Below the pieces are notes generated by a model. That model had not been told where the DNA came from and searched no databases. It saw only the letters and a list, made by a program, of their open reading frames with translations. DNA of 64,000 nt. Origin: Paracoccaceae bacterium. Its GTDB lineage: Bacteria; Pseudomonadota; Alphaproteobacteria; Rhodobacterales; Rhodobacteraceae. This document shows, in pieces, positions 162 through 51,694 of the stretch (its first letter is position 1; each line of letters opens with the position of its first letter). Position numbers and translations under genes: made by a program. The stretch spans positions 3,344 to 67,343 of the forward strand of contig JBJLFR010000010.1 of the NCBI GenBank assembly GCA_045565285.1, written 5' to 3'.

Positions 162-2240
162 ATGGACAAGATTAAAGAAGAATTACCGCTAAAAAATGAA
201 TATCATGAGGCCTATAACAAGAAGGAAGTTTTTCCCAAAGAATCTGGATACTTAAATCATGATATTCTAAATAAGGTTCCAAAGAATAAAAAAACTCAAA
301 AGGTTTTTGGTTCTCTAAATAAATTACAAAAATCTAATTCATCCAAAAGTCCACCAAAGGAAACCATAAATCAATTTTTAAATCTTTATAATAAAGGAAA
401 GCTGTCTGCTTTAATTGATCAAGCTGAGGTTCTTATAAAGCAATATCCCAAATCTTTTATGATCTGGAATATAATGGGAGCGGTAAAACAAAGATTAGGA
501 CAGGTTGAAGATGCCTCTTTCGCCTTCAAGAAGGTAACATCGTTAAATCCAACATACGCAGGTGGTTACAATAATCTTGGTATTATCTTACAAGAACAAG
601 GGAAAATTAAAGAGGCGATGGAGGCTTACAAAAAAGCAATTTATATTAAGCCAAATTATGCAGAGGTATATAGTAACATAGGTAATATTTTAAAAGAGCA
701 ATCGAAGTTAGATGAGGCTATAGAGATTTATAAAAAAGCTTTATTACTGAAGCCAGATTATGCAGAGGCCTATAATTACATGGGTATTGCTCTTGAAGAG
801 CAAGGTAAGTTAGATGAAGCGATTGAGGCTTACAACAAAGCAATTTCCTTTGAGCCTCATTATGCTGACGCATATTTAAATTTAGGTCTCGTACTTCATG
901 ATCAAGGAAAATTAGATGAGGCAATAGAGGTATATAATAAGGCTCTATCATTTAAGCCGGATTATGCTTTAGCTCATAATAATATAGGGCTTGCTCTCAA
1001 AGAAAAAGGAAACCTAAATAGAGCGCTTGAGGCTTATAAAAAAGCAATTTCTTATCAGCCTGATTTCGCTGACGCTTATTTAAACTTAGGTCTCGTTTTC
1101 CAAGATCAAGGTAAGTTAAATGAGGCCCTAGATGCTTACAAAAAAGCACTATCATTGAAACCAAATTATGCATTGGCCTACAGCAGTATGGGCAAGACAC
1201 TTCAAGACCAAGGAAACCTAAATAGTGCAATAGAGGTTTATAAGACGGCACTCTCAATTAAGCCTAACGATGCAGATACTCATAAAAACTTGAGTTTTTC
1301 ACTTCTGAATAGTGGAAGACTTAAGGAAGGCTTTGAAGAATATGAATGGCGTTTCAAAATTTCCAATAGTTTAATTAAGAATAGAAACTTTTCAAAGCCT
1401 TTGTGGGATGGAAAAAAAAGTTTGAAAGGTAAGAAAATTTTACTTTGGAGTGAGCAGGGTATTGGAGATACTATAAATTGGTGCTCTTTGTTATCATTTG
1501 TTAACTCACAAGTGGATCACTGTATTTTGGAATGTCCGGAAAAACTTGTTCCGTTATTAACTCGATCATTTCCAAAAGTAGAGATCAAGTCTGATTGCAT
1601 GGGTTTTGATAAAGAAAGTTTTGATTTTCATATCCCAATGGGAAGCCTTTACAAACATTTTTTATTTAAGTTTTCTCAAGAATACAAACCTTATAATTTT
1701 CTTATTCCCGATCCGCATAGGGTCAAGTTTTGGAAAGAACGACTTAAATCTCTGGGAAACGGTCCTTATGTTGGTATAAGCTGGAAAAGCTCAGAAATGT
1801 CGCCTAACCGTTTACCTAATTATGCTTCTATATCTGAGTGGTCTCCTATACTTACACTTTCTGACATAACCTTTATAAATCTTCAATATCAAGATTTTGT
1901 GGATGATTTAAACAATATCAAAAATAAATTGGGTGTAATGGTTCATAACTTTAATGATTTGGATCATTTCAATAATTTAGACGATGTAGTTGCTCTATGT
2001 GCTGCACTTGATGTTATTGTATCTATTAAAAATATAGTCCCTACAATCTCAGCAGGAGTTGGGACCTTAACTAAACTTGCTAATTGGCGACAAAGCCCAT
2101 GGAATAACGTTTTACTTAATCCTCTCAGCCCTTCGGTTAAAATATTTGAAAGAGATACATGGGAGCCTTGGGAAAATATCTTTAGATCAATTTCCAAAGA
2201 AATTATAGAAATAAAAAATAGTTCAAAACATAATGGATAA
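162..2240 (+). CDS. TPR-repeat protein with C-terminal GT9-like (heptosyltransferase-like) domain
   Basis: 692-aa ORF. About nine consecutive 34-aa TPR units (recurrent 'EAIEAYxKAxxxKPxYAxAYxNxG...GKLDEA', roughly aa 95-400), visible as a 102-nt DNA periodicity around 480-1290. The C-terminal ~280 aa carry 'GKKILLWSEQGIGDTI', reminiscent of GT9-type sugar transferases. Confidence 0.6.
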   Translation: MDKIKEELPLKNEYHEAYNKKEVFPKESGYLNHDILNKVPKNKKTQKVFGSLNKLQKSNSSKSPPKETINQFLNLYNKGKLSALIDQAEVLIKQYPKSFMIWNIMGAVKQRLGQVEDASFAFKKVTSLNPTYAGGYNNLGIILQEQGKIKEAMEAYKKAIYIKPNYAEVYSNIGNILKEQSKLDEAIEIYKKALLLKPDYAEAYNYMGIALEEQGKLDEAIEAYNKAISFEPHYADAYLNLGLVLHDQGKLDEAIEVYNKALSFKPDYALAHNNIGLALKEKGNLNRALEAYKKAISYQPDFADAYLNLGLVFQDQGKLNEALDAYKKALSLKPNYALAYSSMGKTLQDQGNLNSAIEVYKTALSIKPNDADTHKNLSFSLLNSGRLKEGFEEYEWRFKISNSLIKNRNFSKPLWDGKKSLKGKKILLWSEQGIGDTINWCSLLSFVNSQVDHCILECPEKLVPLLTRSFPKVEIKSDCMGFDKESFDFHIPMGSLYKHFLFKFSQEYKPYNFLIPDPHRVKFWKERLKSLGNGPYVGISWKSSEMSPNRLPNYASISEWSPILTLSDITFINLQYQDFVDDLNNIKNKLGVMVHNFNDLDHFNNLDDVVALCAALDVIVSIKNIVPTISAGVGTLTKLANWRQSPWNNVLLNPLSPSVKIFERDTWEPWENIFRSISKEIIEIKNSSKHNG

Positions 2241-14984: not shown

Positions 14985-15362
14985 ATGTCCTTAAATACTA
15001 TAAAAATTTATTTTGATGGAAATTGCGGTCTATGCAGCAAGGAAATTAATTATTATAAGAAAATAGATAAAAAAAATATTTTTAAATGGGTGGATATATA
15101 TACTTACGATACTGTCCTAAAAAAATATGGGATTATAAAATCTGAAGCATTAATGGAGCTTCATGCATTGGATGAAAATGGTAAGATGTATAAAGGTGTA
15201 GATAGCTTTATATTAATCTGGAAGAATTTATCTTTCTTTTGGTCAATTTTAGGTATCCTAGTTTCTTTTTACCCTATATATATAATTGCTAAATTTGCTT
15301 ATAGAAAATTTGCTATTCAAAGATTTAACAAACTTGGTTACTGTGATATAAAAACTAACTAA
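14985..15362 (+). CDS. DCC-family thiol-disulfide oxidoreductase (DUF393)
   Basis: 125 aa. The N-terminal 'IYFDGNCGLCSKEINYYKKID' is the D-x-x-C-x-x-C signature of the DCC family. Confidence 0.75.
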   Translation: MSLNTIKIYFDGNCGLCSKEINYYKKIDKKNIFKWVDIYTYDTVLKKYGIIKSEALMELHALDENGKMYKGVDSFILIWKNLSFFWSILGILVSFYPIYIIAKFAYRKFAIQRFNKLGYCDIKTN

Positions 15363-15394: not shown

Positions 15395-16969
15395 GTGAAT
15401 AAAATTTTGGTAAAAAAAAATTCTCCTTTTAAAATTGATGTTGAAGCTGGAAAAAAATATTTCTGGTGTAAATGTGGTAAAAGTTCCAATCAACCTTTTT
15501 GTGATGGCAGTCACAAAGATACAGATATTAGCCCAGTTTCTTTTTTAGCAGAAAAATCAGAAACTAAATTCTTTTGTGGTTGTAAGATAACAAATTCTCA
15601 ACCCTTTTGCGATGGATCACATAATACTTTAAATGTAGATTTAATTTCTTGTACTGAAAGTAGTAAATTATTTGATGTCAATATAAGACCAGATGATAAA
15701 TTAATTAAAGTCGATATAAACGAAACATTACTCACAGCTTCTCTTAGAAATAATGTCCCTCATCTAAGTGCTTGTGGTGGCGTTGGTAAGTGTTCTACTT
15801 GCAGAGTAGAAGTAATTGATGGTCTAGACAATTGCTCAAAAAGATCACTTCTTGAAGAAAAATTGGCGCAAAAACTTAAATTCCCAGATCAAATTAGATT
15901 AGCTTGCCAAACAAAAATTTTGGGTAATATTTCTTACAGACGTCTTCTACTTGATAAAAGAGATTTAAACCATAATAGCCAAGAAAATCACAAAAAATTA
16001 GAGTCTGTTGGAACAATTCGGAATTTATCAATAATGTTTTGCGATATTAAAGGATTTACACCTTTTTCAGAAAGTTTATCTGCTTATGATGTAATATTTA
16101 TATTAAATCGATATTTCTCTATTATGAGAGAGGTAATTATTAAAAATGGTGGAGAAATTAATAATTATATTGGTGATGCAATTCTAGCAATTTTTGGCCT
16201 TAACGAAACACGTCAACAAACATTAAGAGCAACAAATGCTGCTTTAGAAATGATTCACCGTATGGATGAATTTAAAAAATATCTCATAAAAGCATATGGT
16301 AGCGACTTTGATATTAGAGTTGGTATTCATTATGGTGAAGTTATCGTCGGAACTGTTGGTTATGGAGAAGATAAAAAATTAACAGTGATAGGAGATGCTG
16401 TAAATATTGCCAGTAGAATTGAGGCGATTAATAAGGATGCAGGAACACGATTACTAGTATCTGATGATGCCTACAATGAAATAAAAGAGAACGTAGATGT
16501 TCGAAATTTCCTTAGATTAAAATTGAGAGGAACAAGTAACTTAATAACTTTGCATGAAATTCAAAGCGTAAAAGAGAACTCCCTTATAGACCATGATAAT
16601 ATCAAAGAAATTAGATATAATAATTTGCTATGGACAAGGACACTTCCGATAAGTGAACTTGAAGAAGGAGAAAAAAAGAAATTTCTTTCCAAAGACAAAG
16701 AAATTCTTTTAATAAAACAGAATGGCATTTATGCAATTGAAAACTTTTGTCCTCATATGAATTTACCTTTAGATGTAGGACAACTTACTGAAAATGGAAC
16801 TATTCTATGTCCGTATCATAATAGTGAATTTTGCTTTAAATCAGGGGAAGCAAAAAAGTGGGTAGGATTAAAAGCTCAAGATGCTCAAAAAGAATGTGAA
16901 CCTCTTAAAATAATTCCCACATTATCAAAAGACAGTTATATTTGGATTAAGAAAGATCAAAATATTTAA
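15395..16969 (+). CDS. multi-[2Fe-2S] class III adenylate/guanylate cyclase (2x CDGSH, ferredoxin, cyclase, Rieske)
   Basis: 524 aa with a GTG start. CDGSH motifs 'CKCGKSSNQPFCDGSH' (aa 25-40) and 'CGCKITNSQPFCDGSH' (aa 61-76). Ferredoxin 'CGGVGKCSTC...LACQT' (aa 127-172). Cyclase 'MFCDIKGFT', 'IGDAILAIFG', 'RVGIHYGEVIVGTVG', 'GDAVNIASRIE' (aa ~213-345). Rieske 'CPH-x17-CPYH' (aa 452-475). Confidence 0.85.
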   Translation: MNKILVKKNSPFKIDVEAGKKYFWCKCGKSSNQPFCDGSHKDTDISPVSFLAEKSETKFFCGCKITNSQPFCDGSHNTLNVDLISCTESSKLFDVNIRPDDKLIKVDINETLLTASLRNNVPHLSACGGVGKCSTCRVEVIDGLDNCSKRSLLEEKLAQKLKFPDQIRLACQTKILGNISYRRLLLDKRDLNHNSQENHKKLESVGTIRNLSIMFCDIKGFTPFSESLSAYDVIFILNRYFSIMREVIIKNGGEINNYIGDAILAIFGLNETRQQTLRATNAALEMIHRMDEFKKYLIKAYGSDFDIRVGIHYGEVIVGTVGYGEDKKLTVIGDAVNIASRIEAINKDAGTRLLVSDDAYNEIKENVDVRNFLRLKLRGTSNLITLHEIQSVKENSLIDHDNIKEIRYNNLLWTRTLPISELEEGEKKKFLSKDKEILLIKQNGIYAIENFCPHMNLPLDVGQLTENGTILCPYHNSEFCFKSGEAKKWVGLKAQDAQKECEPLKIIPTLSKDSYIWIKKDQNI

Positions 16970-17822: not shown

Positions 17823-17860
17823 AAATTAAGTTATTAATATGCCTTGAAGGATTTTTGATC

Positions 17861-18967
17861 ATGACCGATACACCAAAAATAGCAGAAAAAGCAGATTCTC
17901 CATTAGCTTTTTCTTTACCATTATTATTTTGCCCTTTGTTAATGCTTGGTTGGATTTATGGTGGAATTATGCTCATTTTTGTACCAATATTTGGATATGT
18001 TATTATTTCAATTATTGATCTCTTTATTGGTGAAAACAAAAAAGATCAGATTTTAAATAACGGAAATATTAATAATTACAAAATTATTTTGTTCGCATGG
18101 CCATTTATTCAATTTTTTTTACTATTTGGCTCAATCATTGTTATATGTTTTTTTGATCATTTATCTTTAATTGAAGCTATTGTTTTAATGTTGGTTCAAG
18201 GAATGATTACTGGTGCCGTTGGTATTACGTTTGCCCACGAATTAATGCATCAAAAAACTAAGTTTGAAAGATTTCTTTCTGATTTGCTAATGGGAATGGC
18301 CTTTTATGGTCATTTTAGAACAGAACACGTTTATGTTCACCATAGATTTGTTGGCACAAAAAAAGATGCTGTTACAGCTCGATATAATGAAAGTTTCTAT
18401 ACATTCTTTGTTAGAGTTGTTCCAGAATGTTTTAAATCAGCATGGAAAGTTGAAACCTTAAGACTGAAAGGAAAAAATAATAGCATATTTAATTCATCAA
18501 ATCCTTTTTATATATATGTAACATTAGCATTATTTTTCCTATTATTATCTTTTTTAATTGGTGGTTTTTGGGGTATATGTTTATTTTTAATACAAGCAAT
18601 AGTTGCTATTTTGCATTTAGAAGTTGTTAATTACATAGAACATTATGGTTTAAGTAGGCAAAAAGTTGATGATGAAAAATATGAACCTACCAAACCATTT
18701 CATAGCTGGAATGCAAATCATGCAGCAAGTAATTTTTTGTTAATAAATCTTCAAAAACATTCAGATCATCATGCTAGACCTAATAAAACTTACCCTTTAT
18801 TAAGTGCCTATGATCAAAATTCTGCTCCACAATTACCTTTTGGTTATCCCATAATGGTAGTATTAAGTCTATTACCATTTTTATGGAGGAACGTTATGAA
18901 CCCCAGAGTTAAGGAATGGAGAGAACAGTTTTATCCAGAAATAAAAGAGTGGAATGAATTAAACTAA
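17861..18967 (+). CDS. alkB: alkane 1-monooxygenase (AlkB-type integral-membrane di-iron hydroxylase)
   Basis: His boxes 'HELMHQ' and 'EHVYVHHR', plus the AlkB-specific 'NYIEHYGL' and 'LQKHSDHHA'. Multiple TM segments. The ATG at 17861 lies inside ORF 17855..18967. Confidence 0.75.
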   Translation: MTDTPKIAEKADSPLAFSLPLLFCPLLMLGWIYGGIMLIFVPIFGYVIISIIDLFIGENKKDQILNNGNINNYKIILFAWPFIQFFLLFGSIIVICFFDHLSLIEAIVLMLVQGMITGAVGITFAHELMHQKTKFERFLSDLLMGMAFYGHFRTEHVYVHHRFVGTKKDAVTARYNESFYTFFVRVVPECFKSAWKVETLRLKGKNNSIFNSSNPFYIYVTLALFFLLLSFLIGGFWGICLFLIQAIVAILHLEVVNYIEHYGLSRQKVDDEKYEPTKPFHSWNANHAASNFLLINLQKHSDHHARPNKTYPLLSAYDQNSAPQLPFGYPIMVVLSLLPFLWRNVMNPRVKEWREQFYPEIKEWNELN

Positions 18968-50653: not shown

Positions 50654-51694
50654 ATGAAATTTCTCGACTTAGTAAAAGTTTATATAAAATCTGGAAATGG
50701 TGGATCTGGTGCATTAAGTTTCAGAAGGGAAAAATATATTGAAAAAGGGGGACCAGATGGAGGTAATGGTGGAAAGGGGGGCTCAGTATGGGGAATACCT
50801 GATAGTAATTTAAATACTTTAATAGATTTTAAATATAAACAACATCATTTTGCAAAAAATGGGAGACCAGGACAAGGTAAGAAAAAAACGGGTGAATCTG
50901 CTGAAGATATTTTTTTAAAACTACCTTTAGGTACAGAAATATTTGACGAAAACCAAAAGATACTTTTGGGAGAAATAAACAATATTAATGATAAAGTATT
51001 ATTACTTCCTGGTGGAACTGGTGGTTTAGGAAACCATAATTTTAAATCATCAACTAATCGCTCACCTAGAAAATTTACATCGGGGGGCAAAGGTTTAGAA
51101 AAAACAATATATCTTAAATTAAAATTAATTGCCGATGTGGGAATGATTGGACTTCCTAATGCAGGAAAATCAACTTTACTTTCTAAAACATCTAATGCTA
51201 AGCCTAAAATTGCAAATTATCCTTTCACTACATTAATTCCAAAGCTTGGTATTATTTCAATTTATAATTCACAATTAACCATTGCAGATATACCAGGATT
51301 AATTAAAGATGCTTATAAAGGAAAAGGAGCAGGAATTAGATTTTTAGGTCATATTGAAAAATGTAAAGCTCTTATACATCTTATTGATGTAACATCTTCA
51401 AAGATTATAAATGATTATAAAATAGTACTAAATGAATTAGAAAAGTATAATAAAGAATTATTAAATCGACCTCGAATTACTGTACTTAATAAAGTTGATT
51501 TAGTTGATAAAAATACTTTAAATAAAAAAATAAAATTATTAGCTAAATTTGAAATTAAATTACATACTATTTCAGCAATAAATATGACTGGTTTAGAATA
51601 TTTGAAAAAAGATATTTTCAAAAAAATAGTTAATGAAAAAATAGAAAAAGAAAAAGAGAATAAGTTGGAAAAAAAATGGAATCCAATAGATTAA
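50654..51694 (+). CDS. obg: GTPase Obg/CgtA
   Basis: 346 aa. Obg fold 'FRREKYIEKGGPDGGNGGKGGSV', G1 'GLPNAGKST', G3 'DIPG' and G4 'NKVD'. Confidence 0.95.
   Translation: MKFLDLVKVYIKSGNGGSGALSFRREKYIEKGGPDGGNGGKGGSVWGIPDSNLNTLIDFKYKQHHFAKNGRPGQGKKKTGESAEDIFLKLPLGTEIFDENQKILLGEINNINDKVLLLPGGTGGLGNHNFKSSTNRSPRKFTSGGKGLEKTIYLKLKLIADVGMIGLPNAGKSTLLSKTSNAKPKIANYPFTTLIPKLGIISIYNSQLTIADIPGLIKDAYKGKGAGIRFLGHIEKCKALIHLIDVTSSKIINDYKIVLNELEKYNKELLNRPRITVLNKVDLVDKNTLNKKIKLLAKFEIKLHTISAINMTGLEYLKKDIFKKIVNEKIEKEKENKLEKKWNPID

What the first reader, a model, noticed from the sequence alone, without database searches (positions are those of the whole stretch)
15395..16969. Nucleotidyl cyclase linked to four predicted [2Fe-2S] modules (CDGSH x2, ferredoxin, cyclase, Rieske)
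Seen in sequence: one uninterrupted 524-aa ORF contains five elements in order. (1) Two CDGSH motifs (C25-K-C-G-K-S-S-N-Q-P-F-C-D-G-S-H40 and C61...H76). (2) An NqrF/plant-type ferredoxin motif (C127-x5-C133-x2-C136 ... C171). (3) A class III cyclase core at aa ~213-345, with metal Asp residues in 'MFCDIKGFT' and 'IGDAILAIFG', plus 'RVGIHYGEVIVGTVG' and 'GDAVNIASRIE'. (4) A C-terminal Rieske motif (C452-P-H454-x17-C472-P-Y-H475). Established knowledge: each of these motif families ligates a [2Fe-2S] centre, and ferredoxin-cyclase fusions are known. I know of no characterised cyclase that combines CDGSH, ferredoxin and Rieske modules. Inference: this is an intramolecular electron relay, or a redox/iron/O2-sensing input that controls cyclic-nucleotide output. 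A DCC-family thiol-disulfide oxidoreductase gene (14985..15362) sits 32 nt upstream on the same strand, so a redox-signalling operon is plausible. The position that usually holds the adenine-specifying Lys (four residues before the second metal Asp) appears to be Asn ('NNYIGD'), so the nucleotide substrate is open.
Basis: partly seen in the sequence, partly recalled or inferred. Interest (0 to 1): 0.8.

Follow-up and report, generated by a model that had tools for sequence, protein, structure and literature searches.

The report
Soluble cyclase carrying four iron-sulfur clusters
This gene encodes a real, widely conserved marine bacterial enzyme that makes a cyclic-nucleotide signal and carries four predicted iron-sulfur clusters, most likely a soluble relative of the redox-regulated adenylate cyclase CyaC that reports the cell's redox or iron state.

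Summary
ORF 15395..16969 (+) encodes 524 aa. Pfam finds zf-CDGSH x2, Fer2, Guanylate_cyc and Rieske, all above the curated cut-offs. All 16 cluster ligands and all catalytic residues are conserved in 118-121 of 121 homologues.

The fusion is not an artefact. More than 120 protein clusters from marine metagenomes share the architecture, and some carry four CDGSH motifs.

The Fer2-linker-cyclase core is homologous (33% identity, E 7e-52, contiguous) to Sinorhizobium meliloti CyaC. CyaC is a characterised, quinone-responsive adenylate cyclase with two haems and a [2Fe-2S] cluster. The wider Fer2-cyclase family is fused to many redox modules: a haem-type membrane anchor, FNR-like, globin, peroxidase, Rieske and CDGSH.

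The window protein is therefore a soluble, all-[2Fe-2S] variant of a known kind of redox-sensing cyclase. It is uncharacterised.

The adenine-specifying Lys is an invariant Asn paired with Thr, so the product is probably cAMP but unproven.

The DCC1-like neighbour is not conserved, so the proposed operon is weak.

The host is an AT-rich alphaproteobacterial MAG binned as Paracoccaceae.

The parts
15395..16969 (+). Complete gene: CDGSH x2 - Fer2 - class III cyclase - Rieske, 524 aa, GTG start. Predicted soluble: the highest 19-residue hydropathy mean is 1.02.
15410..15631 (+). Tandem-motif (type 6, MiNT/MmCISD-like) CDGSH module, aa 6-79. It holds two 3Cys-1His [2Fe-2S] sites: motif 1 is aa 25-40 (15467-15514) and motif 2 is aa 61-76 (15575-15622). 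The type-specific residues Gln33 and Lys64 are conserved.
   Evidence: 3TBN E 6.7e-26; CISD3 6AVJ E 3.4e-17; PMC3174974.
15629..15676 (+). Hypervariable tether of variable length between the CDGSH module and Fer2, aa 79-94. AlphaFold pLDDT is below 50.
   Evidence: commonest-residue frequency 0.21, gap fraction 0.48.
15677..15934 (+). Fer2 [2Fe-2S] ferredoxin domain, aa 95-180. Ligands are C127-x5-C133-x2-C136-x34-C171 (NqrF/adrenodoxin-like spacing). There is an extra invariant Cys at position 147.
   Evidence: (nqrF 38 bits, fdx_isc 32 bits).
15935..16024 (+). Conserved, fixed-length Fer2-to-cyclase linker, aa 181-210. It contains the family-wide motif RRL(L/V)xDxxD and is the candidate signal-transmitting element.
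   Evidence: no gaps, conservation 0.79; motif and 39-49-residue spacing in 137 of 140 representatives.
16025..16549 (+). Class III nucleotidyl cyclase catalytic domain, aa 211-385 (class IIIb-like). Key residues: metal Asp D217 and D261; N257 at the Lys/Glu specificity position; T330 at the Asp/Thr position; N337; R341; R308; R378.
   Evidence: Foldseek TM about 0.84 to Cya2, CyaC (Spirulina) and CyaB.
16550..16630 (+). Linker between cyclase and Rieske, aa 386-412. Sequence is variable but length is constant.
16631..16954 (+). Rieske-type [2Fe-2S] ferredoxin domain, aa 413-520. Ligands are C452-P-H454 ... C472-P-Y-H475. The bc1-type disulfide cysteines are absent.
   Evidence: (HcaC, NirD, AndAb ferredoxin models).
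14985..15362 (+). Upstream DCC1-like thiol-disulfide oxidoreductase gene (CxxC at C14..C17; hydrophobic C-terminal segment), 32 nt from the cyclase start. The neighbourhood is not conserved across the family.
   Evidence: contexts.

Best explanation
The gene encodes a soluble cytoplasmic class III (IIIb-like) nucleotidyl cyclase of the CyaC-type Fer2-coupled lineage. Like other bacterial class III cyclases, it should act as a head-to-tail homodimer. The Fer2 [2Fe-2S] cluster is joined to the catalytic domain by a conserved, fixed-length linker and acts as the proximal switch. Its oxidation state, or its presence, sets cyclase activity, as in S. meliloti CyaC, where oxidation via quinones activates cAMP synthesis. 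In CyaC a dihaem membrane anchor feeds that cluster. Here two soluble kinds of His-ligated [2Fe-2S] centres do the job: a flexibly tethered tandem CDGSH module (two clusters) and a C-terminal Rieske domain (one cluster). They equilibrate the switch with cytoplasmic reductants or oxidants and are also the most labile sites. The output is probably cAMP, read by cNMP-binding/CRP-type effectors encoded elsewhere. Shown here: the architecture, ligand and catalytic-residue conservation, homology to CyaC, and the recurrence of redox modules around the Fer2-cyclase core. Inferred: cluster binding, electron exchange between clusters, the direction of regulation, and the product.
For: (1) All domains score above the Pfam cut-offs. 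(2) The 16 ligands and the catalytic residues D217, D261, N337 and R341 are kept in 118-121 of 121 homologues of 58-96% identity. The clusters and catalysis are therefore both under selection. (3) There is contiguous homology of aa 95-379 (Fer2 + linker + cyclase) to the annotated S. meliloti CyaC: 33% identity, E 7e-52. CyaC carries two haem B and a [2Fe-2S] cluster, and its cyclase activity responds to quinone redox state (PMC10463352). (4) An exhaustive search of 1.84 billion cluster representatives gave 591 hits at E<=1e-30. In the best 150, the Fer2 ligands are kept in about 141 of 149, the Fer2-to-Asp spacing is 39-49 residues in 137 of 140, and an RRLVxDxxD motif is shared. (5) The same core is fused to other redox modules: FAD/NAD (FNR-like), globin, peroxidase, Rieske, C-terminal CDGSH x2, and a multi-TM His-rich anchor. 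This is the pattern expected of a redox-output cassette with exchangeable inputs. (6) The CDGSH tether is hypervariable while the Fer2-cyclase linker is rigidly conserved. (7) There are no TM segments.
Against: No biochemical data exist for this family. The AlphaFold monomer model has pTM 0.42 and low-confidence linkers, so cluster-to-cluster distances and any relay path are unknown. The Fer2-cyclase linker is not a recognisable coiled-coil transducer. The specificity Lys of CyaC is replaced by Asn, so extrapolating the product is uncertain. No conserved partner gene, such as a reductase or effector, is found next to the gene. The direction of regulation is borrowed from CyaC only.
Confidence: 0.6

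Rival explanations
1. The protein senses iron or Fe-S supply through cluster occupancy rather than redox state. The labile CDGSH and Rieske clusters are lost or not assembled under iron starvation or oxidative/NO stress. The holo/apo ratio of the protein then sets cyclic-nucleotide output in iron-poor seawater.
For: The family is restricted to marine metagenomes and MAGs with AT-rich genomes. It invests 4 to 6 [2Fe-2S] clusters per chain, with 587-618-aa variants carrying four CDGSH motifs. In one context a FUR-family gene lies 250 nt downstream on the same strand. From established knowledge of mitoNEET/MiNT: 3Cys-1His CDGSH clusters are labile and transferable.
Against: The FUR association appears in 1 of 11 contexts only. 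The homologous CyaC is described as redox-responsive, not occupancy-responsive (PMC10463352). Fusions with FNR-like and globin modules point to electron or ligand sensing. The two readings are not mutually exclusive.
Confidence: 0.2
2. The main product is not cAMP. The invariant Asn257/Thr330 pair redirects the enzyme to GTP or makes it promiscuous, giving cGMP or another cyclic NMP.
For: N257 replaces the adenine-specifying Lys in 121 of 121 members. Among the 149 aligned representatives of the wider Fer2-cyclase family, Lys/Thr occurs in 71, Asn/Thr in 26 and Asn/Ser in 5. In one genome the gene is wedged between guaB and guaA. The closest solved catalytic domain by sequence and fold is the guanylyl cyclase Cya2.
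Against: The guanylyl cyclase signature residues, Glu and Cys/Gly, are absent. Asn and Lys alternate within a single architecture: the CyaC-like anchor proteins P0301 and P0312 have Asn while S. meliloti CyaC has Lys, which suggests the change is tolerated. From my own knowledge, not verifiable here: M. tuberculosis Rv1900c (Asn/Asp) and Rv0386 (Gln/Asn) remain mainly adenylate cyclases. The guaB-guaA context is a single case.
Confidence: 0.3
3. The protein is mainly an electron-transfer protein, a fused ferredoxin/Rieske/CDGSH chain serving an oxygenase or another redox enzyme. The cyclase domain would be a scaffold or allosteric module rather than the output.
For: The Rieske domain resembles the ferredoxin subunits of ring-hydroxylating dioxygenases and NirD. 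An AlkB-like di-iron FA_desaturase gene lies 0.9 kb downstream in the window and in the syntenic L085.
Against: All catalytic cyclase residues are invariant, and the cyclase domain is the most conserved part of the protein (0.86 versus 0.71-0.75). No oxygenase partner is conserved across the 11 contexts. The homologue CyaC is a working cyclase.
Confidence: 0.06
4. The architecture is an assembly, frameshift or gene-calling artefact that joins separate genes.
For: One close relative (P0004 on L085) appears split into a 438-aa protein and a 67-aa Rieske fragment.
Against: L085 is a pilon-polished contig on which other genes are also broken (DctM and MFS_1 each called as two adjacent pieces), so the split is itself the artefact. 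More than 115 independent clusters from ENA, JGI, Tara, NCBI and Logan carry the full architecture in one ORF.
Confidence: 0.01

Closest known systems
Sinorhizobium meliloti CyaC (SMc01818), a redox-regulated class III adenylate cyclase (Wissig et al. 2019, as described in PMC10463352)
   Same: Both have a Fer2 [2Fe-2S] domain directly N-terminal to a class III cyclase domain. The alignment is contiguous over Fer2 + linker + cyclase (33% identity, E 7e-52). Both have Thr at the Asp/Thr specificity position and Arg-Gly in place of Lys-Gly in the beta7-beta8 loop. By analogy, both are redox-active cofactor chains feeding a cyclase.
   Different: CyaC has a 6TM dihaem-B membrane anchor that senses quinones. 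The window protein has no TM segment and instead carries a tandem CDGSH module and a Rieske domain, giving four [2Fe-2S] clusters and no haem. CyaC keeps the adenine-specifying Lys (DKFIGD), whereas the window protein has Asn (NNYIGD).
MmCISD (PDB 3TBN) and human CISD3/MiNT (6AVJ): type 6 tandem-motif CDGSH proteins
   Same: Residues 6-79 align end to end with MmCISD (E 6.7e-26). The numbering of ligands (C25, C61 ...) and of the type-specific interface residues Gln33 and Lys64 is identical (PMC3174974). MmCISD is a monomer binding two [2Fe-2S] clusters.
   Different: The known members are stand-alone proteins of about 80-130 aa, or fused to a glutamate-synthase FMN domain (type 5). The seven-type classification in PMC3174974 contains no cyclase fusion ('cyclase' occurs 0 times).
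Soluble class IIIb cyclases with sensor domains: Spirulina CyaC, P. aeruginosa CyaB, Synechocystis Cya2, bPAC/OaPAC
   Same: They share the catalytic fold (Foldseek TM about 0.8-0.86) and show 26-29% identity. Both have Thr at the Asp position. Both use the logic of an N-terminal sensor domain regulating a homodimeric catalytic core.
   Different: Their sensors are GAF, BLUF, CHASE or MASE2 domains rather than Fe-S domains. The window protein also has a C-terminal Rieske domain and lacks the specificity Lys or Glu.
Rieske-type ferredoxins of oxygenase systems (HcaC, AndAb) and NirD
   Same: They share the CxH...CxxH ligand pattern and a small soluble Rieske fold.
   Different: Scores are far below the equivalog cut-offs (43.5 versus 150 bits for HcaC). 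The domain is fused to a cyclase, and no oxygenase or nitrite reductase partner is conserved.

Membership tests
Class III nucleotidyl cyclase (PF00211) | Profile match above the curated threshold, and the cyclase fold | tested here: met
   89.2 bits against a cut-off of 21.9; Foldseek TM about 0.84 to 2W01, 1WC1 and 3R5G.
Class III nucleotidyl cyclase (PF00211) | Two metal-binding Asp, the ribose-orienting Asn and the transition-state Arg | tested here: met
   D217, D261, N337 and R341 are present in 121 of 121 family members. Residue roles are as listed in PMC2576301.
Class III nucleotidyl cyclase (PF00211) | Canonical purine-specifying pair: Lys/Asp or Lys/Thr for ATP, Glu/Cys for GTP | tested here: not met
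   The pair is Asn257/Thr330 and is invariant. Only the Thr is canonical (class IIIb).
Class III nucleotidyl cyclase (PF00211) | Homodimer with active sites at the interface; measurable cyclase activity | not testable with these tools
   Only a monomer prediction was possible.
CyaC-type Fer2-coupled redox-regulated adenylate cyclases | Fer2 domain with four Cys ligands immediately upstream of the cyclase domain, with contiguous homology to S. meliloti CyaC | tested here: met
   (E 7e-52 over aa 95-379). The spacing and the RRLVxDxxD motif are shared across representatives.
CyaC-type Fer2-coupled redox-regulated adenylate cyclases | 6TM dihaem-B membrane anchor with a tetra-His signature | tested here: not met
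   No hydrophobic segment is present: the highest 19-residue hydropathy mean is 1.02. The N-terminus is a CDGSH module instead.
CyaC-type Fer2-coupled redox-regulated adenylate cyclases | Cyclase activity that changes with the redox state of the cofactors | not testable with these tools
   Requires purified protein.
Type 6 (tandem-motif) CDGSH iron-sulfur domain | Two CDGSH motifs (3Cys-1His each) about 20 residues apart, with the type-specific Gln33 and Lys64 | tested here: met
   Motifs span C25-H40 and C61-H76, with 20 residues between H40 and C61. Q33 is invariant and K64 is at least 90% conserved. The criteria come from PMC3174974.
Type 6 (tandem-motif) CDGSH iron-sulfur domain | Stand-alone small protein | tested here: not met
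   The module is fused to a 445-aa Fer2-cyclase-Rieske body.
Rieske [2Fe-2S] domain (PF00355), ferredoxin type | CxH-x(15-17)-CxxH ligands, a profile match, and no bc1-type disulfide pair | tested here: met
   Ligands are C452-P-H454-x17-C472-P-Y-H475; 53.1 bits against a cut-off of 20.3. Ligands are kept in 118-119 of 121 members. No Cys is adjacent to the ligand His residues, as read directly from the sequence.
Fer2 (PF00111) [2Fe-2S] ferredoxin | Four Cys ligands with Cx4-5Cx2C...C spacing, and a profile match | tested here: met
   Ligands are C127-x5-C133-x2-C136-x34-C171; 39.1 bits against a cut-off of 21. Ligands are kept in 120-121 of 121 members.
   The DCC1-like gene is adjacent in the window. 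In L085 (same lineage) only an unannotated 47-aa ORF occupies the syntenic upstream position, taken here as a DCC remnant. In L083 it is on the divergent strand. It is absent in L081, L082, L084 and L087-L091.

The most novel reading that the evidence does not exclude
The protein is a multi-threshold redox and iron rheostat. Three chemically different kinds of [2Fe-2S] centre (4-Cys ferredoxin, 3Cys-1His CDGSH and 2Cys-2His Rieske) have widely separated, partly pH-dependent potentials and different labilities. Together they grade the output of one cyclase. The output may be a non-cAMP nucleotide specified by the Asn/Thr pair. This would give genome-streamlined marine bacteria a single-protein integrator of reductant supply, oxidative/NO stress and iron sufficiency.
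Probability: 0.2. Interest if true: 0.8.

Novelty: new variant of a known kind. Interest (0 to 1): 0.62.

Why it matters
Fe-S-dependent control of cyclic-nucleotide synthesis is documented, in what I could search, for only one protein, membrane-bound CyaC. In CyaC the role of the [2Fe-2S] cluster itself is not resolved in the one paper I could read (PMC10463352). The present family offers a soluble version without haem, so the Fe-S-to-cyclase coupling could be studied directly by EPR, redox titration and mutagenesis. It also shows that the Fer2-cyclase pair is a widespread redox-output cassette with exchangeable inputs: 591 cluster representatives at E<=1e-30. Ecologically, the family is represented by several thousand sequences from ocean metagenomes, in AT-rich genomes. 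A protein that spends 8 to 12 iron atoms per chain on sensing in iron-poor water must report something important. It would link redox or iron status to second-messenger signalling in abundant marine heterotrophs. The invariant Asn at the purine-specifying position is a testable handle on nucleotide specificity in a quarter of this family.

Tried and rejected
1. Genome-collection scan for phyletic distribution. It is unusable as a census.
2. Rfam scan of the window: no RNA family, so no rRNA-based taxonomy.
3. Taxonomy from a FabF-like gene gave only 66% identity to Rhodobacteraceae. ObgE resolved it: 100% identity to an NCBI 'Paracoccaceae bacterium' MAG.
4. Promoter and terminator scans: 27 promoter-like sites against 22.2 +/- 3.9 in shuffles. 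This is uninformative in AT-rich DNA, and no terminator lies between the DCC gene and the cyclase.
5. AlphaFold monomer: the domains are good but pTM is 0.42, so no inter-cluster distances can be claimed. Foldseek against PDB matched only the cyclase domain. The long, high-rmsd alignments to bPAC and OaPAC are not meaningful.
6. Search for a cNMP-binding receptor in the window, using the one found near P0056: none.
7. Search for paralogues of each domain in the window: none.
8. Literature searches for CDGSH/Rieske/ferredoxin cyclases and for SAR11/Pelagibacter cyclases: nothing relevant.
9. The original CyaC paper (Wissig 2019) and the Rv1900c paper (Sinha 2005) are not held. The Rv1900c/Rv0386 precedent for non-Lys adenylate cyclases therefore rests on my memory.
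10. Artefactual fusion was considered and rejected.
11. A conserved DCC operon was considered and rejected (11 contexts).
Full report
OBSERVATION

The window holds an uninterrupted ORF at 15395..16969 (+) with a GTG start, encoding 524 aa. The local DNA is only 25-31% G+C. Pfam finds four families, all above their curated cut-offs:
- zf-CDGSH, two stretches, 59.4 bits
- Fer2, aa 97-175, 39.1 bits
- Guanylate_cyc, aa 208-384, 89.2 bits
- Rieske, aa 413-489, 53.1 bits

NCBIfam gives only sub-threshold domain-level hits: nqrF and ISC ferredoxin for Fer2, and HcaC, NirD and AndAb for Rieske. The protein therefore belongs to no named equivalog. The protein has no hydrophobic segment (highest 19-residue hydropathy mean 1.02), so it is soluble. 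No paralogue of any of its domains occurs elsewhere in the window.

IT IS A REAL, CONSERVED FAMILY

A search of 5.8 billion protein clusters returned 1172 hits. The best 120 (58-96% identity) almost all carry the same four Pfam families in one chain. They come from ENA, JGI, Tara, NCBI and Logan, and many clusters hold hundreds of member sequences. In a 121-sequence alignment, the following are kept in 118-121 sequences:
- the 16 predicted cluster ligands: C25/C27/C36/H40, C61/C63/C72/H76, C127/C133/C136/C171, C452/H454/C472/H475
- the catalytic residues: D217, D261, N337, R341
- the specificity pair: N257 and T330

The cyclase domain is the most conserved part (mean commonest-residue frequency 0.86). 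The Fe-S domains follow at 0.71-0.75. The tether between CDGSH and Fer2 is hypervariable in sequence and length (0.21, 48% gaps). The Fer2-to-cyclase linker has a fixed length and is conserved (0.79, no gaps).

Members of 587-618 aa carry a second tandem CDGSH module at the N-terminus, giving six predicted clusters. One apparently truncated relative (P0004) lies on a polished contig on which other genes (DctM, MFS_1) are also called in pieces, so it is an assembly artefact.

WHAT THE PARTS ARE

Residues 6-79 align end to end with Magnetospirillum MmCISD (PDB 3TBN, E 6.7e-26) and with human CISD3/MiNT (6AVJ, E 3.4e-17). MmCISD is a monomer in which each of two CDGSH motifs binds a [2Fe-2S] cluster. 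The residues that define this tandem-motif type 6 fold are Gln33 and Lys64 (PMC3174974). They sit at the same numbers in the window protein and are conserved.

The Fer2 domain has Cx5Cx2Cx34C spacing. The Rieske domain has CPH-x17-CPYH and lacks the extra cysteine pair next to the ligand His residues, which in my own knowledge marks the low-potential ferredoxin type.

The cyclase domain is closest in sequence and predicted fold to class IIIb enzymes: Cya2, Spirulina CyaC, P. aeruginosa CyaB and bPAC (TM about 0.8-0.86). In the alignments, CyaB Lys, Cya2 Glu and S. meliloti CyaC Lys all fall on Asn257. The class IIIb Thr falls on Thr330.

THE KEY RELATIVE

An exhaustive HMMER search of 1.84 billion cluster representatives (50% identity) shows three things:
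- The four-domain family collapses into a single 50% cluster (P0070), so it is a tight clade.
- Next come Fer2-cyclase-Rieske proteins without CDGSH, at 34-43% identity (P0293-P0296, P0298, P0306, P0324).
- Beyond these lie several hundred Fer2-cyclase proteins: 591 hits at E<=1e-30.

Among the best 150 representatives:
- The Fer2 ligands are kept in about 141 of 149.
- The distance from the last Fer2 Cys to the first metal Asp is 39-49 residues in 137 of 140.
- An RRL(V/L)xDxxD motif follows the Fer2 domain.

The Fer2-cyclase core is fused to many other modules:
- FAD_binding_6/NAD_binding_1 (FNR-like)
- globin
- peroxidase
- DUF2769
- a C-terminal CDGSH pair (P0297)
- a multi-TM, His-rich N-terminal anchor (P0301, P0312)

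A tblastn of P0301 against annotated plasmid and chromid records hit the gene annotated cyaC in S. meliloti. Its translation shows a multi-TM N-terminal part followed by Fer2 and the cyclase domain. It aligns contiguously with window residues 95-379 at 33% identity, E 7e-52. CyaC is characterised. Per PMC10463352, citing Wissig et al. 2019, it binds two haem B in the 6TM domain and a [2Fe-2S] cluster. Its haems are oxidised or reduced by ubiquinone. Its cyclase activity is activated after oxidation by quinones.

MECHANISM

This mechanism is inferred. The Fer2-cyclase pair behaves as a conserved redox-output cassette with exchangeable inputs. In the window protein the membrane dihaem input of CyaC is replaced by two soluble, His-ligated kinds of [2Fe-2S] centre. 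I propose four steps:
- The Fer2 cluster is the proximal switch, acting through the conserved linker on the homodimeric catalytic core.
- The flexibly tethered CDGSH pair and the Rieske domain set or report the switch, by exchanging electrons with cytoplasmic couples or by losing their clusters under oxidative, NO or iron stress.
- By analogy with CyaC, the oxidised state is the active one.
- The product is probably cAMP.

The AlphaFold monomer has a mean pLDDT of 78.5 but a pTM of 0.42, with disordered segments at aa 79-89 and 187-204. It gives confident domains but no reliable arrangement, so no cluster distances can be claimed.

SUBSTRATE

Asn at the Lys position is invariant in the family. 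Among the 149 aligned representatives of the wider Fer2-cyclase family:
- Lys/Thr occurs in 71.
- Asn/Thr occurs in 26.
- Asn/Ser occurs in 5.

Both Lys and Asn occur within the anchor-type and the Rieske-type architectures. This suggests that the exchange is tolerated without a change of role. From memory, and not verifiable here because searches failed, M. tuberculosis Rv1900c (Asn/Asp) and Rv0386 (Gln/Asn) are still mainly adenylate cyclases. The guanylyl cyclase residues Glu and Cys/Gly are absent. I put about 0.65-0.7 on cAMP.

SURROUNDINGS

Upstream on the opposite strand lie five genes:
- DUF4174
- a methyltransferase
- a PALP enzyme
- YceI
- a GST-like gene

The DCC1-like gene (CxxC, hydrophobic C-terminus) lies 32 nt upstream on the same strand. 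Downstream lie a probably spurious 84-aa ORF on the opposite strand (no gene is called at the syntenic position in L085), a small membrane protein, an AlkB-like FA_desaturase and GSDH.

I examined 11 genomic contexts (window, L081-L085, L087-L091). The flanking genes differ almost every time. DCC1-like is adjacent only in this lineage (window and L085) and, on the divergent strand, in L083. Single cases show guaB-cyclase-guaA (L084), a FUR-family gene downstream (L089) and a cNMP-binding protein 4 kb away (L081). The gene is best viewed as a stand-alone unit, and the redox operon idea is not supported beyond this lineage. Promoter and terminator scans are uninformative in this AT-rich DNA.

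HOST

The window encodes several housekeeping genes:
- L21
- ObgE
- ProB
- ProA
- LpxD
- FabF-like

Its ObgE is 100% identical to an NCBI protein from a 'Paracoccaceae bacterium' MAG on a 79.8-kb contig. Named relatives, all Rhodobacterales, are only 52-56% identical. The closest full-length family member in species-representative genomes is from 'Rhodobacteraceae bacterium REDSEA-S34_B6'. Another is from 'Alphaproteobacteria bacterium MarineAlpha2_Bin1'. Loci carrying the gene have 28-40% G+C.

NOVELTY

Full-text searches found no paper on a cyclase with CDGSH or Rieske modules. The published CDGSH classification contains no cyclase fusion. Automatic annotations such as 'class 3 adenylate cyclase/CDGSH-type Zn-finger protein/...ferredoxin subunit' already exist, so the sequences are known but uncharacterised. 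Because a characterised homologue with the same Fer2-cyclase core exists, this is a new variant of a known kind, not a new category.

VERDICT

Interest is 0.62.

Noticed in passing
L084:4531-9084: In one marine genome (GCA_902560425.1) the family member P0111 lies directly between IMP dehydrogenase (guaB) and GMP synthase (guaA). All three are on one strand, with gaps of 3 and 30 nt. This hints at a link to guanine-nucleotide metabolism, but it is a single case.
   Followed up: partly
L089:5292-5744: A FUR-family regulator gene sits 250 nt downstream, on the same strand, of family member P0077. This is the only iron-regulation neighbour seen in 11 contexts.
   Followed up: no
L002:3992-5761: A 445-aa Fer2-cyclase-Rieske protein without CDGSH, which also has Asn at the Lys position, is followed 15 nt later by a stand-alone 138-aa Rieske paralogue.
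   Followed up: partly
Proteins P0297, P0305, P0375, P0313, P0323, P0338, P0318, P0354, P0345: The Fer2-cyclase core occurs fused to a C-terminal CDGSH pair, to peroxidase, to an FNR-like FAD/NAD module, to globin and to DUF2769. This is a whole set of uncharacterised putative redox-sensing cyclases.
   Followed up: partly
Proteins P0002, P0008, P0013, P0068 (587-618 aa; alignment A1 columns 1-120): Longer family members carry a second tandem CDGSH module at the N-terminus: four CDGSH motifs and six predicted [2Fe-2S] clusters per chain.
   Followed up: partly
window 50654-51694: ObgE is 100% identical to a protein of an NCBI 'Paracoccaceae bacterium' MAG, yet the window has only 25-31% G+C and named Rhodobacterales relatives are just 52-56% identical. 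This points to a strongly AT-biased, deep-branching lineage.
   Followed up: partly
window 17855-18967: An AlkB-like FA_desaturase (membrane di-iron enzyme with His boxes) lies 0.9 kb downstream of the cyclase and is syntenic in L085. Such enzymes need an electron donor, but the association is not seen in other lineages.
   Followed up: no
L085:8001-9565: The closest relative on a long contig is split into a 438-aa protein and a 67-aa Rieske fragment. Other genes on this pilon-polished contig are split too, indicating assembly frameshifts rather than biology.
   Followed up: yes
window 15833-15835 (Cys147): A fifth cysteine in the Fer2 domain (C147, in GL(D/E)NC) is invariant in the four-domain family. 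In the wider Fer2-cyclase family it is Cys in only 56 of 149 representatives and Leu in 62. Its role is unknown.
   Followed up: partly
window 162-2240: This is a large TPR-repeat protein (692 aa). It scores just above the NCBIfam cut-off for magnetosome protein MamA (209 versus 200 bits), most likely a generic TPR match.
   Followed up: no
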